A stretch of 64,000 nt of DNA from Escherichia coli (GTDB lineage: Bacteria; Pseudomonadota; Gammaproteobacteria; Enterobacterales; Enterobacteriaceae): the NCBI RefSeq assembly GCF_041886205.1, contig NZ_CP169029.1; one strand, written 5' to 3'. A program made the position numbers. Numbering within the stretch: the first letter of the stretch is position 1; the number at the start of each line of letters is the position of its first letter. Positions 18,001 through 24,000 of this stretch are shown one piece after another.

Positions 18001-21000
18001 CCGCGTCAATGTCGAGACAGAAGCCCAGCAGCACGAGTCTTCACGCACCAATGGCGGCGCGCTGATCAAGACTATCAATATTCGCGTTGAGAACCCTAAC
18101 CTGCATGATTTAGCCATTAAAGATGTACCGATTCTCAACGGCGACAAAATTATCTGCTCGCGTCTGAAACGAGAAGAAACCCTAAAAGTACCTTCGCCAG
18201 ATACCATTATCCAACTGGGCGATTTGCTGCATCTGGTGGGGCAGCCAGCGGATTTACATAATGCGCAACTGGTGATTGGTCAGGAGGTCGATACCTCGCT
18301 GTCCACGAAAGGCACTGATTTGCGCGTCGAGCGTGTGGTGGTCACCAATGAAAACGTGCTTGGTAAGCGTATTCGCGACCTGCATTTTAAAGAACGCTAT
18401 GACGTTGTTATCTCGCGCCTGAACCGTGCCGGGGTCGAACTGGTCGCCAGTGGCGATATCAGCCTGCAGTTCGGCGATATCCTCAATCTGGTGGGGCGTC
18501 CGTCCGCAATTGATGCCGTTGCCAATGTGCTGGGGAATGCGCAGCAAAAACTGCAACAGGTTCAGATGCTGCCAGTGTTTATTGGCATCGGGCTAGGCGT
18601 ATTGTTAGGTTCTATTCCCGTCTTTGTGCCAGGATTCCCGGCCGCGTTGAAACTGGGGCTGGCGGGCGGACCGCTGATTATGGCGTTGATCCTCGGGCGT
18701 ATCGGCAGTATCGGCAAGCTGTACTGGTTTATGCCGCCAAGCGCCAACCTCGCGCTGCGGGAGCTGGGGATCGTGCTGTTCCTCTCGGTCGTTGGTCTGA
18801 AATCTGGTGGGGATTTTGTGAATACCCTGGTCAATGGCGAAGGGCTAAGCTGGATTGGTTATGGTGCCCTGATCACCGCCGTTCCGCTGATTACTGTTGG
18901 CATTCTGGCGCGGATGTTAGCCAAAATGAATTACCTGACCATGTGCGGGATGCTGGCAGGTTCCATGACCGATCCTCCGGCGCTGGCGTTTGCTAATAAT
19001 CTTCATCCAACCAGCGGTGCGGCGGCGCTCTCTTACGCCACTGTCTATCCGTTGGTAATGTTCCTGCGCATTATCACCCCCCAATTACTGGCGGTGCTCT
19101 TCTGGAGTATCGGTTAACTCTTTTCCGGGTGGAGTCGCCGTAAATGGTACTCCACCTGGTATTCGCTGGCATTTCTGAACATCACTGAATAATTCAAAAA
19201 CTCCCCGCTCTCGCTATATGACAACGAGGTGATCCGCAGCAGTGGCGTGTGTTCCGCTACCTTCATTTGCCGCGCCAGCAGTCTATCGGCGAGCACTGGC
19301 GTCAGGCTTTCATAATTACCGCCAATCAAAATCCCGCACTCTTGTTCAATATATTCAAACTTCGACCCTTCCAGATGTTGCAGCGAAAGATTACGGAACA
19401 GTTTTACCGGCATATAGCTGTCTTCCAGCATCAGCGGTTTCCCTTCCACAAAACGAACGCGACGGGAGAAGTAGATCTGCTCGTTGATTTGAATCCGTAA
19501 CTGGCTGGCAATGGCCGGAGGCGCAGGCATGATTTCAAAAATCAGCACCTGGCTGGTGACCGTTTTTCCCTGCCGTTTTAACACCTCCACCAGCCCGGTC
19601 AGACTGGCGGTTTGATGCAGTACATCTTTGCGCACCAGGTAAGTGCCACTACCGTGGCGGCGGACCACCAGCCCCCACGCTACCAGCAGGTCAATGGCTT
19701 TACGGATGGTCATCCGCGATACCGCAAACTCTTCCGCCAGCTTTTTTTCACCGGGAAGAAGGCTGTTTAGCGTGAAATCTGCGGAGTTAAGTCGAATTCT
19801 TAACCGCTCCGCAATGCTTTTGTAGATCATCTCTAGATCTCTTTTTTGCCTGCAAGCCCGGGTAATGCGCACACAAGTTCTGCTTAATCGATTGAAAAAA
19901 CATCTTTTTTTTAAAGATGTGTTCGATGCTGTGTACCTGTGCTCACAGAGGTCTACTTTTTCGCGAAAACGTAGATCTCTACCGCCCAACGAAAAGCATG
20001 AAAGCGATCACGAATCCCATTGGGTCGTCATGTTCTGCCGATCGCATCTTCCTATCCTCGCTCCAGGCCTGCCGCATAACCAATCAGGCTTCCTACTTAC
20101 AGAATTGAGAAAAGAGGATGTGGAAATGCTCAGTCAAATTCAACGCTTTGGCGGCGCGATGTTCACGCCAGTGCTGCTGTTTCCCTTCGCCGGGATTGTG
20201 GTGGGTCTTGCCATCTTGTTGCAAAACCCGATGTTTGTCGGGGAATCACTGACCGATCCGAACAGTTTATTCGCGCAAATCGTACACATTATTGAAGAGG
20301 GCGGTTGGACGGTATTCCGTAATATGCCGCTGATTTTTGCTGTCGGTTTACCCATTGGCCTTGCTAAGCAAGCGCAGGGGCGTGCTTGTCTGGCGGTGAT
20401 GGTGAGTTTCCTGACCTGGAACTATTTCATTAATGCGATGGGAATGACCTGGGGAAGTTACTTCGGCGTCGATTTCACTCAGGACGCGGTGGCAGGTAGC
20501 GGTCTGACAATGATGGCCGGGATTAAAACCCTCGATACCAGCATTATCGGCGCAATTATCATTTCCGGCATTGTGACGGCGCTGCATAACCGTCTGTTCG
20601 ATAAAAAACTGCCGGTGTTTCTCGGCATTTTCCAGGGGACGTCTTATGTGGTGATTATCGCCTTCCTGGTGATGATCCCCTGTGCCTGGCTGACATTGCT
20701 CGGCTGGCCAAAAGTACAAATGGGGATTGAATCTCTGCAAGCGTTCCTGCGTTCGGCGGGTGCGCTTGGGGTGTGGGTTTACACCTTCCTCGAACGTATT
20801 CTGATCCCAACCGGTTTACACCACTTCATCTACGGACCGTTTATCTTTGGTCCGGCAGCTGTTGAAGGCGGCATTCAGATGTACTGGGCGCAGCATCTGC
20901 AAGAGTTCAGTCTGAGCGCCGAGCCGCTGAAATCGTTGTTCCCGGAAGGCGGTTTTGCCCTGCACGGTAACTCAAAAATCTTTGGTGCCGTGGGCATTTC

Positions 21001-24000
21001 TTTAGCGATGTACTTCACTGCCGCACCGGAAAATCGGGTAAAAGTGGCAGGCTTGCTGATCCCCGCAACCTTAACCGCCATGCTGGTGGGAATTACCGAA
21101 CCGCTGGAATTTACCTTCCTGTTCATTTCACCGTTGCTGTTTGCGGTACACGCTGTGCTGGCGGCCTCAATGTCGACCGTGATGTATCTCTTTGGTGTGG
21201 TGGGCAACATGGGCGGAGGTCTGATTGACCAGGTTTTACCGCAAAACTGGATCCCGATGTTCAGCAACCACGCGGATATGATGCTGACCCAAATCGCCAT
21301 TGGGTTGTGCTTTACCCTGCTGTACTTCGTGGTTTTCCGCACCCTGATACTGCAGTTCAACATGTGTACGCCGGGACGTGAAGATGCGGAAGTGAAACTC
21401 TACTCAAAAGCCGAATACAAAGCCTCGCGAGGCCAAACCACCGCGGCAGAGCCAAAAAAAGAGCTGGATCAGGCTGCCGGTATCCTGCAAGCCCTGGGCG
21501 GGGTCGGCAATATCTCCAGCATTAACAATTGCGCGACGCGTTTACGTATTGCACTGCATGACATGTCACAAACGTTGGATGACGAAGTCTTTAAAACGCT
21601 GGGAGCGCACGGCGTCTTCCGTAGTGGCGATGCCATTCAGGTGATCATTGGTCTGCATGTATCCCAGCTGCGTGAACAGCTCGATAGCTTAATTAATTCT
21701 CATCAATCAGCAGAAAATGTTGCCATTACGGAGGCAGTATAATGACCAAATTCTCAGTGGTTGTCGCAGGCGGTGGAAGCACCTTTACGCCAGGCATCGT
21801 GTTGATGCTCCTGGCGAATCAGGACCGTTTCCCGCTTCGTGCACTGAAATTTTATGATAACGATGGTGCGCGGCAGGAAGTGATTGCCGAAGCCTGTAAA
21901 GTCATCCTTAAAGAAAAAGCGCCGGACATTGCGTTTAGTTACACCACCGATCCTGAAGTGGCATTCAGCGACGTTGATTTTGTCATGGCGCACATCCGCG
22001 TCGGCAAGTACCCGATGCGCGAACTGGATGAAAAAATCCCACTGCGCCACGGTGTTGTTGGTCAGGAAACTTGCGGACCCGGCGGAATAGCGTACGGCAT
22101 GCGTTCCATTGGCGGCGTCCTGGAACTGGTGGATTATATGGAAAAATATTCACCAAATGCCTGGATGCTCAACTACTCCAACCCGGCAGCCATTGTCGCA
22201 GAAGCCACGCGTCGTCTGCGCCCGAATGCGAAAATCCTCAACATCTGTGACATGCCAATCGGTATTGAAAGCCGGATGGCGCAAATTGTTGGGCTGCAAG
22301 ATCGCAAACAGATGCGCGTGCGCTACTACGGCCTGAACCACTTTGGCTGGTGGACATCAATTGAAGATTTGCAGGGCAACGACCTGATGCCCCAGCTGCG
22401 GCAATATGTCTCTAAGCACGGTTATGTTCCACCGCAGCAAGATACACATACTGAAGCGAGCTGGAACGACACCTATGCAAAAGCGCGGGATGTCCAGGCA
22501 CTGGACCCGGATACATTGCCGAACACCTATCTGAAATATTATCTCTTCCCGGATTATGTCGTTCAGCATTCCAACCCTGAACATACCCGCGCGAATGAGG
22601 TGATGGAACATCGCGAGAAACAGGTTTTCGATGCTTGCCGCGCCATTACGGCGGCAGGAAATTCAGCGGCGGGCAAGCTGGAAATTGACGAACATGCGTC
22701 ATACATCGTCGATCTGGCGGCGGCAATTGCCTTCAACACTCAGGAGCGGATGTTGCTGATTGTGCCTAACAACGGGGCAATTCATAACTTTGATGATGAA
22801 GCGATGGTCGAGATCCCGTGTCTGGTCGGGCACAACGGACCAGAACCACTGGTGGTCGGCGATATCCCGCAGTTTCAGAAAGGGTTAATGAGTCAGCAAG
22901 TGGCGGTGGAAAAACTGGTCGTGGACGCCTGGGAACAGCGTTCATATCAGCACCTGTGGCAGGCGATTACGTTGTCGAAAACGGTACCGAGCGCCTCGGT
23001 CGCCAAAGCTATTCTGGATGAGTTGCTGGAGGCCAACAAAGCGTACTGGCCAGAGTTACGTTAATTGTGTGGACTGGCATCCGTTGGGTGCTGGTCCGTA
23101 TTCTTTAGCACGGCTGACGGCGCATAACCAAATTTATCCGGTGCGCCGTAAAACCCCGTCCTTCAGGGCGGGGATATAAGGCGCGGTTTTCCACCTGACC
23201 AGGTGTTTGCTGTTGTTCAATGTATTGGCGGATGACGGATATTGGCGCACCTCCGCAGCTACTGGCAAAATAGCCAGGACTCCACAAAACGCCTTTGTAG
23301 TAATACCTGACTGCAATATCTGGTCGATCTCGTCGCAGTAACCTACCCGATACGCCTTTGAGGCTGTTTACCAGACTGGATATCGCCAGTTTGGGAGGAT
23401 AGTTAATTAACAAATGGACGTGATCTGGTTCGCCATCCATTTAAACCAGTTCAGCTTCAAAATCAGCACATACATTTGAAAAGTAAGTGCGTAGTTTTTC
23501 TGTCGCGTCATAGTCAAAAATCTGACGTCGGTATCTGGTGACAAAGACCAGGTGAACATGCATCAGGAAAACACAATGCTTCCCCGTCGGATATCGGTTT
23601 CTTTATTCACAGACCAAAGTATCATTTGGCCTGTGAAACGATTACAGGCATTTAAATTCCAGTTAAGACCCGGTGGTCAACAGGAGCGTGAAATGAGGCG
23701 CTTCGCAGGCGCATGTCGTTTCGTTTTCAATCGTGCTCTGGCGCTTCAGAATGAGAATCATGAGGCCGGTAATAAATACATCCCTTACGGGAAAATGGCT
23801 TCCTGGCTGGTTGAGTGGAAAAACGCCACTGAAACGCAATGGCTTAAAGATTCGCCCTCACAGCCATTGCAACAGTCACTGAAAGACCTTGAGCGGGCTT
23901 ACAAAAACTTCTTCCAGAATCGGGCTGCTTTTCCCCGATTCAAAAAGCGGGGACAGAATGATGCATTCCGCTACCCGCAGGGCGTTAAGCTCGATCAGGA

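What the first reader, a model, noticed from the sequence alone, without database searches (positions are those of the whole stretch)
19114..23064. Intact glv-type alpha-glucoside PTS and hydrolase operon with divergent GntR regulator
A fused EIICB permease (538 aa) is translationally coupled to a GH4 6-phospho-alpha-glucosidase (440 aa), with the GntR-family gene yidP divergent. As I recall, the corresponding K-12 genes (glvC, glvG) are annotated as disrupted or cryptic, so this strain may have a functional alpha-glucoside phospho-sugar pathway that K-12 lacks.
Basis: partly seen in the sequence, partly recalled or inferred. Interest (0 to 1): 0.3.

Follow-up and report, generated by a model that had tools for sequence, protein, structure and literature searches.

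The report
Intact alpha-glucoside PTS operon (glv/agl)
This E. coli strain carries an undamaged copy of a three-gene sugar-uptake module (regulator, transporter, phospho-alpha-glucosidase) that is broken in K-12; about 30% of sequenced E. coli have the same intact form, so it is real but ordinary.

Summary
yidP (19114-19830, minus strand, GntR/HutC, 238 aa) lies divergent from a 538-aa EIICB permease (20126-21742). A 440-aa GH4 6-phospho-alpha-glucosidase (21742-23064) follows, with its start overlapping the permease stop (TAATG).

MG1655 differs by an amber codon at glvC codon 369 (window 21230, C to T), which splits the gene into glvC and glvB. It also has a 508-bp frameshifting deletion in glvG between 8-bp direct repeats (GAACCACT).

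The hydrolase is about 89% identical to the solved Klebsiella pneumoniae AglB and keeps the positions that align with the GlvA catalytic residues. The permease scores far above the curated cut-off of the alpha-glucoside IIBC family. The yidP-glvC-glvG module is conserved across Enterobacterales, Aeromonas and Vibrio, with a footprinted inverted repeat and a CRP-like site.

It is not unusual. Of 5426 complete E. coli genomes:
- about 30% have full-length glvG;
- about 50% carry the K-12-type deletion;
- about 21% lack the module.

RefSeq already names the genes correctly. Function in E. coli is inferred, not shown. Arbutin, a beta-glucoside, is the wrong test substrate. Low interest; already known.

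The parts
19114..19830 (-). yidP: GntR/HutC-subfamily regulator (238 aa), the probable repressor of the operon. It is identical in DNA sequence to K-12 yidP.
   Evidence: Pfam GntR (residues 3-64) plus UTRA (87-224). Annotated yidP in PT62 and K-12. No SNP against K-12 over 18914-20218. An ortholog lies divergent from the permease in every Enterobacterales, Aeromonas and Vibrio locus whose stored upstream sequence reaches that position.
19834..19843 (.). Conserved box CTAGATCTCT (consensus TAGACCTCT) directly upstream of the yidP start. It contains the yidP ribosome-binding site (AGAGG on the minus strand) and resembles an operator half-site.
   Evidence: It is the only island of 90% or more conservation at the yidP end of the 31-sequence intergenic alignment.
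19950..19977 (.). Inverted repeat GGTCTAC-N14-GTAGATC (consensus TGTCTA-N-TAGACA), the candidate YidP operator.
   Evidence: the repeat finder pair I1, 17-nt arms, 88% complementary. Conserved in the alignment. The strict form TCTA-N16-TAGA occurs in 15 of 31 loci against 1.3 expected in shuffles, always 46 nt upstream of the CRP-like site. Binding by YidP is inferred.
19997..20012 (+). CRP-like site CATGAAAGCGATCACG (7 of 10 matches to TGTGA-N6-TCACA), about 60 bp upstream of the inferred transcription start.
   Evidence: RTGA-N6-TCAC is present in 28 of 31 loci against 0.25 expected in shuffles. In most loci it lies 125-141 nt from the permease start and is strongly conserved. Assignment to CRP is an inference from the consensus.
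20053..20058 (+). -10-like hexamer TATCCT (TATTCT or TATGCT in relatives). There is no good -35, as expected for an activator-dependent promoter.
   Evidence: Conserved T-A-T-n-C-T column block. The simple sigma-70 consensus scan finds no full promoter in 19700-23700.
20126..21742 (+). glvC-type (AglA-like) alpha-glucoside PTS permease: fused EIIC-EIIB, 538 aa, no EIIA domain.
   Evidence: TIGR02005 alpha-glucoside-specific IIBC scores 957.6 bits against a cut-off of 607.3. PTS_EIIC plus PTS_EIIB. GITE motif at 322-325 and the EIIB phospho-cysteine motif CATRLR at 469. 81% identical over residues 1-538 to the K. pneumoniae ATCC 13883 locus.
21230..21230 (+). Site of the K-12 nonsense mutation. 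The window has C (CAG, Gln369); K-12 has T (TAG), which splits glvC into glvC and glvB.
   Evidence: The CAG 55-mer is in 3925 genomes. The TAG 55-mer is in 348 genomes; the listed examples are mostly K-12 or laboratory strains.
21742..23064 (+). glvG (AglB/GlvA ortholog): GH4 NAD+/Mn2+-dependent 6-phospho-alpha-glucosidase, 440 aa. Its start overlaps the permease stop (TAATG).
   Evidence: PDB 6DUX/6DVV (K. pneumoniae 6-phospho-alpha-glucosidase) 917 bits, 1U8X (B. subtilis GlvA) 750 bits, against 212 bits or less for 6-phospho-beta-glucosidases. GGGS 10-13, C169-D170 (CDMP), H200 and Y263 are present. Identical to RefSeq WP_000160112.1 of strain PT62.
22343..22850 (+). The 508-bp segment that is deleted in K-12 and in about half of all E. 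coli. It is bounded by the 8-bp direct repeats GAACCACT (22335-22342 and 22843-22850).
   Evidence: The internal 471 bp is present in 1652 of 5426 genomes. The natural isolate ES4 has the same 815-bp 'frameshifted' pseudogene next to an intact 538-aa permease.

Best explanation
The locus is an intact E. coli copy of the enterobacterial alpha-glucoside PTS module, called glv in E. coli and agl in Klebsiella pneumoniae.

Inferred mechanism:
1. The EIICB permease takes up alpha-linked glucosides (alpha-methylglucoside, isomaltose, maltitol, and sucrose isomers such as palatinose, turanose, maltulose, leucrose and trehalulose). It phosphorylates them at O-6 of the glucosyl moiety through Cys469 of its EIIB domain.
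2. Because the module has no EIIA, the phosphoryl group must come from the general PTS through EIIA-Glc (Crr), which is encoded elsewhere.
3. The translationally coupled GH4 enzyme then cleaves the 6-phospho-alpha-glucoside by the NAD+/Mn2+-dependent oxidation-elimination mechanism, giving glucose-6-phosphate plus the aglycone.
4. The divergent HutC-type regulator YidP most likely represses the operon, and probably itself, at the conserved inverted repeat (19950-19977). It is probably released by a phospho-sugar, with CRP-cAMP activating from the conserved site at 19997-20012.

Shown here: gene integrity, family membership, presence of the aligned catalytic positions, the nature of the K-12 lesions, conservation of the module and its non-coding elements, and allele frequencies.

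Inferred: substrate range, dependence on Crr, the operator and CRP assignments, and actual expression.
For: - ORFs, start/stop overlap and domains.
- The permease exceeds the curated cut-off of TIGR02005 (957.6 against 607.3 bits).
- The hydrolase matches solved 6-phospho-alpha-glucosidases at 917 and 750 bits, against 212 bits or less for beta-specific GH4 enzymes. The residues that align with GlvA Cys171, Asp172, His202 and Tyr265, and the GxGS NAD motif, are present.
- K-12 lesions are defined base by base.
- The yidP<->glvC-glvG architecture is conserved in all Enterobacterales, Aeromonas and Vibrio loci recovered whose upstream sequence was available, often next to yidE.
- Phylogenetic footprints mark the inverted repeat and the CRP-like site at fixed spacing.
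- Literature: expressing K. pneumoniae aglA plus aglB lets E. coli K-12 grow on alpha-methylglucoside, isomaltose and sucrose isomers, and this needs crr. The K-12 homologs are described as cryptic or truncated (PMC5309279, quoting Pikis 2006, Thompson 2001 and Reizer 1994).
- The E. coli type strain has the empty yidE-yidL junction and is negative on maltitol, alpha-methyl-D-glucoside, palatinose and turanose (PMC4334874).
Against: - No experiment on any E. coli with the intact operon was found in the searchable literature.
- The consensus scan finds no sigma-70 promoter.
- The module is evidently dispensable in E. coli: about 50% of genomes carry a dead glvG and about 21% lack the module. 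Selection on it is therefore weak or niche-specific, and an intact reading frame does not prove expression.
- The CRP-like site matches only 7 of 10 consensus positions.
- The E. coli inverted repeat departs from the consensus of other genera (GGTCTAC/GTAGATC against TGTCTA/TAGACA).
Confidence: 0.8

Rival explanations
1. Intact but cryptic. The reading frames are whole, but the operon is transcriptionally silent in E. coli, as with bgl, asc and chb, and would need an activating mutation before it gives any phenotype.
For: No sigma-70-like promoter was detected. E. coli has about 75 bp of lineage-specific sequence, with its own palindrome (19897-19923), inserted in the intergenic region relative to the short 222-bp forms. 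Frequent loss of glvG or of the whole module in the species fits a gene set that is rarely used. That E. coli keeps several silent glucoside operons is background knowledge.
Against: The -10 element, the CRP-like site, the inverted repeat and the Shine-Dalgarno sequence are all retained at the same spacing as in genera where the system is inducible, such as Klebsiella. Apart from the amber codon, 18 of the 20 glvC substitutions between the window and K-12 are synonymous, which indicates past purifying selection.
Confidence: 0.17
2. It is a beta-glucoside (arbutin) PTS with a 6-phospho-beta-glucosidase, as the historical K-12 annotation and the reader's proposed arbutin test imply.
For: Only the old K-12 gene descriptions (recalled) support this. 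The EIIB domain gives weak partial hits to beta-glucoside IIABC families (41-47 bits against cut-offs of 600-900).
Against: The permease passes the alpha-glucoside IIBC cut-off and fails every beta-glucoside model by more than 500 bits. The hydrolase is about 89% identical to the solved K. pneumoniae 6-phospho-alpha-glucosidase and scores only 148-212 bits against 6-phospho-beta-glucosidases. It carries the CDMP motif at 169-172; my recollection is that this motif marks the alpha-specific GH4 enzymes.
Confidence: 0.02
3. Full-length but functionally dead: a missense change peculiar to this strain inactivates one of the proteins.
For: The window differs from strain PT62 by YidP M101I and GlvC T491K-type polymorphisms. 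The species tolerates loss of the pathway.
Against: GlvG is identical to a RefSeq protein (WP_000160112.1). All checked catalytic and phosphorylation residues are present. The polymorphic positions lie outside the known motifs.
Confidence: 0.03

Closest known systems
Klebsiella pneumoniae aglA-aglB alpha-glucoside PTS and phospho-alpha-glucosidase (Thompson 2001; Pikis 2006; PDB 6DUX/6DVV)
   Same: The gene order is the same (EIICB followed by the GH4 hydrolase). The hydrolase is about 89-90% identical and the permease 81% identical. The same divergent yidP-type regulator and the same position next to yidE are seen in K. indica, Raoultella, Kluyvera, Citrobacter and Enterobacter (the stored K. 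pneumoniae locus is too short upstream to show them). There is no EIIA, so the system depends on Crr (PMC5309279).
   Different: The host species differs. In E. coli the module is polymorphic (intact, glvG-deleted or absent) and has not been tested experimentally. The E. coli intergenic region carries lineage-specific sequence, and its operator arms deviate slightly from the consensus.
E. coli K-12 glvC-glvB-glvG (b3683, b3682, b4556)
   Same: It is the same locus and the same neighbours (ibpB, yidE, yidP), 99.3% identical over 3429 aligned bases. yidP and the promoter region are identical.
   Different: K-12 has the amber codon at codon 369 of glvC, the substitutions P238Q and T491K, and the 508-bp frameshifting deletion in glvG. 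The window has none of these. In the window, yidL, yidK and yidJ downstream are replaced by an IS200/IS605 remnant.
Bacillus subtilis malP (glvC) and malA (glvA) maltose PTS operon (PDB 1U8X)
   Same: The chemistry is the same (EIICB plus a GH4 NAD+/Mn2+ 6-phospho-alpha-glucosidase). GlvA scores 750 bits, about 74% identical, with identical residues at the catalytic positions. It works in E. coli with Crr (PMC5309279).
   Different: The gene order is different: the hydrolase comes first and the permease about 2 kb downstream in the Bacillus loci. No yidP homolog lies in the Bacillus loci; from memory, the regulator there is the RpiR-type GlvR. The permease is only about 61% identical.

Membership tests
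PTS Glc-family alpha-glucoside-specific EIICB (NCBIfam TIGR02005) | Whole-protein score above the curated family cut-off | tested here: met
   957.6 bits against a cut-off of 607.3, covering profile positions 1-524 of 524. The glucose, GlcNAc, MalX, sucrose, trehalose and beta-glucoside IIBC models all fall below their cut-offs.
PTS Glc-family alpha-glucoside-specific EIICB (NCBIfam TIGR02005) | EIIC membrane domain with the GITE motif, followed by an EIIB domain with the phosphorylatable Cys (C-[AI]-T-R-L-R) | tested here: met
   PTS_EIIC covers residues 10-346 and PTS_EIIB 453-482. GITEP is at 322 and CATRLR at 469.
PTS Glc-family alpha-glucoside-specific EIICB (NCBIfam TIGR02005) | PEP-dependent uptake and phosphorylation of alpha-glucosides through EIIA-Glc | not testable with these tools
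   No EIIA domain is present in the locus. Dependence on Crr is inferred from K. pneumoniae AglA and B. subtilis GlvC expressed in E. coli (PMC5309279).
GH4 6-phospho-alpha-glucosidase (GlvA/AglB/MalH) | GH4 N-terminal Rossmann domain and GH4 C-terminal domain | tested here: met
   PF02056 covers residues 6-184 (223.6 bits) and PF11975 covers 195-415 (190.1 bits).
GH4 6-phospho-alpha-glucosidase (GlvA/AglB/MalH) | NAD+-binding GxGS motif, Mn2+ ligands Cys and His, and catalytic Asp and Tyr (GlvA C171, D172, H202, Y265) | tested here: met
   GGGS is at 10-13, C169 and D170 lie in CDMP, H200 in NHFGW and Y263 in YLKYY. The register with 1U8X comes from the HMMER alignment. The GlvA residue numbers and roles are recalled from the GlvA structure paper.
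GH4 6-phospho-alpha-glucosidase (GlvA/AglB/MalH) | Closer to characterised alpha-specific enzymes than to beta-specific GH4 enzymes | tested here: met
   6DUX 917 bits, 1U8X 750 bits and 6VC6 433 bits (all 6-phospho-alpha-glucosidases), against 1S6Y 212 bits and 1UP7 148 bits (6-phospho-beta-glucosidases).
GH4 6-phospho-alpha-glucosidase (GlvA/AglB/MalH) | Mn2+/NAD+-dependent hydrolysis of 6-phospho-alpha-glucosides | not testable with these tools
   This needs an enzyme assay.
GntR superfamily, HutC subfamily regulator | N-terminal GntR winged helix-turn-helix plus a C-terminal UTRA effector domain | tested here: met
   PF00392 covers residues 3-64 and PF07702 covers 87-224. The best NCBIfam equivalogs (PRK09764, LSA1692, PhnF, HutC, TreR) are all below their cut-offs, so YidP is not a member of any named equivalog.
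GntR superfamily, HutC subfamily regulator | Binds a palindromic operator in its own or its target's promoter region | tested here: inconclusive
   A conserved inverted repeat exists at 19950-19977 at fixed spacing. Binding itself was not testable.
Ortholog of the enterobacterial agl/glv module | Conserved divergent regulator-permease-hydrolase synteny, with full-length alignment of all three proteins | tested here: met
   46 of the 48 gammaproteobacterial loci with flanking sequence (L004-L051) show YidP (41-82% identity) divergent from GlvC-GlvG; the other two are too short upstream. 23 of them have a full-length yidE directly adjacent.

The most novel reading that the evidence does not exclude
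The three-state polymorphism of this module in E. coli (intact about 30%, glvG-deleted with intact glvC about 50%, absent about 21%) could reflect niche-dependent selection. Lineages with the intact operon (for example O55:H7 and some animal-associated strains such as this one) would use diet- or honeydew-derived sucrose isomers and isomaltose. The widespread 'permease without hydrolase' state would make cells accumulate non-metabolisable phospho-alpha-glucosides, a built-in sugar-phosphate stress. The extra K-12 amber mutation in glvC would then be a secondary escape from that stress.
Probability: 0.15. Interest if true: 0.35.

Novelty: already known. Interest (0 to 1): 0.12.

Why it matters
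The practical value is modest. Strains like this one are predicted to use alpha-methylglucoside, isomaltose, maltitol and sucrose isomers (palatinose, turanose and others), which K-12 cannot use. That is relevant for strain typing, metabolic models and industrial feedstock use. The K-12 reference under-represents this species capability. The analysis also gives base-level definitions of the two K-12 lesions, species-wide allele frequencies, and a testable operator and CRP model for the uncharacterised regulator YidP. None of this changes current understanding of PTS or GH4 biology.

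Tried and rejected
- The 625-aa and 291-aa 'long' ORFs from the mechanical ORF list were rejected. Conservation starts only at the internal ATGs with Shine-Dalgarno sequences.
- The Rfam scan of 18900-25200 found no known RNA element or leader.
- The consensus promoter scan found nothing usable. The listed terminator-like hairpins are at chance level (6 found against 5.2 expected) and were ignored.
- A second, better-matching CRP-like sequence (TGTAC-N6-TCACA, 19932-19947) was not adopted because it is E. coli-specific and not conserved.
- Literature searches found no study of the intact operon in natural E. coli, whether for glvG, glvC, yidP, glvCBG, or for palatinose or alpha-methylglucoside with phylogroup. 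Pikis 2006 (JBC) is not held, so it is cited only through PMC5309279.
- The arbutin/beta-glucoside reading was rejected on family scores.
- Recurrent origin of the glvG deletion was considered. The two deleted alleles examined (K-12 and ES4) differ by only 5 of 3229 positions, against 24-48 to the intact alleles. This fits a single origin, but only four haplotypes were compared.
- Structure prediction and the large protein-database searches were not run. An 89%-identical crystal structure and curated family models already settle identity.

Full report
**1. What is in the sequence**

The window is the start of an E. coli chromosome. It is 99.9% identical to strain PT62 (NZ_CP090448, from a pigeon) over the region, in the same coordinates.

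Between the heat-shock genes ibpA and ibpB and the putative transporter gene yidE on one side, and yidI, yidH and yidG on the other, lie three genes:
- yidP, 19114-19830, minus strand, 238 aa.
- A PTS permease, 20126-21742, plus strand, 538 aa.
- A GH4 hydrolase, 21742-23064, plus strand, 440 aa.

The mechanical ORF list gives longer versions of the first two (291 aa from a TTG, 625 aa from an upstream ATG). Comparison with 30 related loci shows that conservation begins only at the internal ATGs, each preceded by a Shine-Dalgarno sequence (GAGGAT at 20114-20119 for the permease).

The hydrolase ATG overlaps the permease stop (TAATG, 21740-21744), with GGAGG 9 nt upstream. The finding's coordinates run exactly from the yidP stop to the hydrolase stop.

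**2. What the proteins are**

*Permease.* It has an EIIC domain (residues 10-346) followed by an EIIB domain (453-482) and no EIIA. It scores 957.6 bits against NCBIfam TIGR02005, 'alpha-glucoside-specific PTS transporter subunit IIBC', whose cut-off is 607.3. It fails the cut-offs of the glucose, GlcNAc, MalX, sucrose, trehalose and beta-glucoside models. The GITE motif (322-325) and the EIIB phospho-cysteine motif CATRLR (Cys469) are present.

*Hydrolase.* It has both GH4 domains. Its matches to solved structures are:

| PDB entry | Enzyme | Score |
|---|---|---|
| 6DUX/6DVV | K. pneumoniae 6-phospho-alpha-glucosidase | 917 bits, about 89% identity |
| 1U8X | B. subtilis GlvA | 750 bits |
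| 1S6Y, 1UP7 and others | 6-phospho-beta-glucosidases | 148-212 bits |

In register with GlvA (native GlvA number = query number + 2), several motifs are all present. They are the NAD motif GGGS (10-13), Cys169 and Asp170 (CDMP), His200, and Tyr263. The residue roles are recalled from the GlvA structure work.

*YidP.* It is a GntR winged-helix plus UTRA protein, that is, of the HutC subfamily. It passes no named equivalog model.

**3. Comparison with K-12**

MG1655 annotates glvC (368 aa), glvB (161 aa) and a glvG pseudogene of 815 bp. Aligned to the window, the first 3429 bases are gap-free with 24 substitutions.
- One substitution, window 21230 C to T, turns glvC codon 369 from CAG into TAG. 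This creates the glvC/glvB split.
- Two others give P238Q and T491K.
- Twenty-one are synonymous.
- In glvG, K-12 lacks 508 bp lying between two copies of GAACCACT (window 22335-22342 and 22843-22850).

Because 508 is not a multiple of three, the K-12 frame runs into stops just after His200. It loses Tyr263 and the whole C-terminal domain.

PMC5309279 records the same view from the primary literature: K-12 has homologs of aglA and aglB that are 'cryptic or nonfunctional truncated proteins'.

**4. How common the intact form is**

Counts are out of 5426 complete E. coli genomes.

| Feature queried | Genomes |
|---|---|
| Locus present | 4384 |
| 471-bp piece internal to the K-12 deletion present (full-length glvG) | 1652 (30%) |
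| Locus present minus full-length glvG (K-12-type deletion, roughly) | about 2700 (about 50%) |
| Uninterrupted yidE-yidL junction (no yidP-glvC-glvG at all) | 1137 (21%) |
| 55-mer centred on codon 369 with the CAG allele | 3925 |
| Same 55-mer with the TAG (amber) allele | 348 |

- ES4, a rectal-swab isolate, is an example of the deleted state. Its 538-aa permease is intact and its 815-bp GH4 gene is flagged 'frameshifted'.
- Genomes with the empty junction include the type strain ATCC 11775, E2348/69 and Nissle 1917.
- The genomes listed for the TAG allele are mostly K-12 or laboratory derivatives. The amber codon is thus largely a K-12-lineage lesion, whereas the glvG deletion is a widespread natural allele.
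- K-12 and ES4 differ at only 5 of 3229 positions, against 24-48 differences from the intact alleles. This suggests one origin for the deletion haplotype, though only four haplotypes were compared.
- O55:H7 CB9615 has the intact operon, and RefSeq already calls its products 'PTS sugar transporter subunit IIB' and '6-phospho-alpha-glucosidase'.

The intact state is common and already annotated.

**5. Evolutionary context**

A scan of one genome per species followed by tblastn shows the same divergent regulator-permease-hydrolase module in many genera. These are Citrobacter, Klebsiella, Raoultella, Kluyvera, Enterobacter, Kosakonia, Cedecea, Buttiauxella, Serratia, Rahnella, Proteus, Pectobacterium, Brenneria, Aeromonas and Vibrio. 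In many Enterobacteriaceae it lies directly next to yidE.

The module is therefore ancestral at this position. The E. coli states without it, or with a dead glvG, are losses. Firmicutes and Fusobacteria have the permease and hydrolase but no yidP homolog. In the Bacillus loci the hydrolase precedes the permease.

**6. Regulation (inferred)**

The 31 yidP-glvC intergenic regions have diverged almost completely except for a few islands:
- (a) TAGACCTCT abutting the yidP start (window 19834-19843). It includes the yidP ribosome-binding site.
- (b) An inverted repeat, consensus TGTCTA-N-TAGACA. In the window it is GGTCTAC-N14-GTAGATC at 19950-19977 (also found).
- (c) ATGAAnGCGATCAC (window 19997-20012). 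This reads as a CRP site with a strong right half (TGTGA-N6-TCACA, 7 of 10 matches; the Vibrio version is GTGA-N6-TCAC).
- (d) A -10-like TATnCT (window 20053-20058).
- (e) The Shine-Dalgarno sequence.

RTGA-N6-TCAC occurs in 28 of 31 loci, against 0.25 expected in shuffles. In most loci it lies 125-141 nt from the permease start. Where the strict inverted repeat is present (15 of 31 loci, 1.3 expected), it always starts 46 nt upstream of that site. The sequences are related, so the shuffle is not a true null. The contrast with the unconserved flanks is the real argument.

With a start near 20065, the CRP-like site would be centred near -60, a class I position. The absence of a recognisable -35 fits an activator-dependent promoter.

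My model is that YidP represses at the inverted repeat and is released by a phospho-sugar, as in other HutC-type regulators of PTS operons. CRP-cAMP would activate. None of this is shown.

**7. Mechanism and substrates**

The mechanism is inferred by orthology with K. pneumoniae AglA/AglB and B. subtilis GlvC/GlvA:
- The permease imports and 6-phosphorylates alpha-glucosides, drawing the phosphoryl group from EIIA-Glc (Crr), because the module has no EIIA.
- The GH4 enzyme releases glucose-6-phosphate and the aglycone.

PMC5309279 summarises two relevant results. aglA plus aglB give K-12 growth on alpha-methylglucoside, isomaltose, maltitol, turanose, maltulose and isomaltulose. Both the Klebsiella and the Bacillus permeases need crr in E. 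coli.

The type strain of E. coli lacks the module. It is reported negative on maltitol, alpha-methyl-D-glucoside, palatinose and turanose (PMC4334874). This is consistent but not discriminating.

**8. Rivals**

The main alternative is that the operon is intact but silent in E. coli, as with bgl, asc and chb. In its favour are the missing consensus promoter, the E. coli-specific insert and palindrome in the intergenic region (19897-19923), and the species' evident tolerance of loss. Against it are retention of all the conserved regulatory islands at the right spacing and the largely synonymous substitution pattern in glvC. I give it about 0.17.

A beta-glucoside function is effectively excluded by the family scores. 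A strain-specific inactivating missense change is unlikely, because GlvG is identical to a RefSeq protein (WP_000160112.1) and the functional residues are present.

**9. Verdict**

It is the intact allele of a known, correctly annotated, widely conserved alpha-glucoside PTS and phospho-alpha-glucosidase module, present in about 30% of E. coli. What remains unknown is experimental: expression, substrate range and YidP's operator and effector in E. coli.

Novelty: already known. Interest: about 0.12.

Noticed in passing
window 23138-24884 (elements at 23105-23440 minus strand and 23633-24841 plus strand): A 1747-bp IS200/IS605-family remnant replaces 4030 bp present in K-12: most of yidL, all of yidK and most of yidJ. 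Only 77 bp of yidL and 159 bp of yidJ remain. The remnant has a truncated, frameshifted tnpA (Y1_Tnp) and an apparently intact 402-aa TnpB (OrfB_IS605 plus Cas12f1-like TNB domain). Strain PT62 has the same arrangement.
   Followed up: partly
E. coli genome collection; example L083 (strain ES4) 2512-4942: About half of complete E. coli genomes keep an intact 538-aa alpha-glucoside permease next to a dead glvG (508-bp deletion). If expressed, this would import and phosphorylate alpha-glucosides without being able to cleave them, a possible sugar-phosphate stress. The additional amber codon in K-12 glvC (348 genomes; the listed examples are mostly K-12 or laboratory strains) might be a secondary lesion.
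   Followed up: partly
L003 7001-7100 (strain A36); 1137 genomes including ATCC 11775, E2348/69 and Nissle 1917: There is a clean 'empty site' in which yidE is followed after about 90 bp by yidL, with no yidP-glvC-glvG. Because the module sits next to yidE in other Enterobacteriaceae, this is a lineage-specific loss, apparently in phylogroup B2-type strains. Strain A36 also lacks yidI.
   Followed up: partly
window 19114-19117 and 23061-23064: Convergent gene pairs share 4-nt overlaps. yidE and yidP end on the palindrome TTAA, which supplies the TAA stop codon of both genes. The 3' remnant of yidL overlaps the glvG stop in the same way (as intact yidL does in K-12). No terminator separates the converging genes.
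   Followed up: no
window 19897-19923: An E. coli-specific palindrome, AAAACATCTTT/AAAGATGTGTT around a T-run, lies in the yidP-glvC intergenic region. It sits inside a stretch of about 75 bp that is absent from the short (222-bp) intergenic forms of other genera. Its function is unknown.
   Followed up: no
window 18914-22342 against K-12: SNP density is sharply uneven. There are no differences from K-12 across the yidE 3' end, yidP and the intergenic region (18914-20218). Then come 21 differences within glvC and 3 in the glvG 5' part. This suggests a recombination boundary near the 5' end of glvC. A second SNP-dense patch against PT62 lies in yidR (about 14550-15400).
   Followed up: no
window 20064-20098: The predicted glvC 5' leader contains a partly conserved pair of GGCC-containing segments (AGGCCTG ... 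CAGGCTT; AGGCC ... AAGGCCTC in relatives). They could form a small stem-loop. There is no Rfam match.
   Followed up: no
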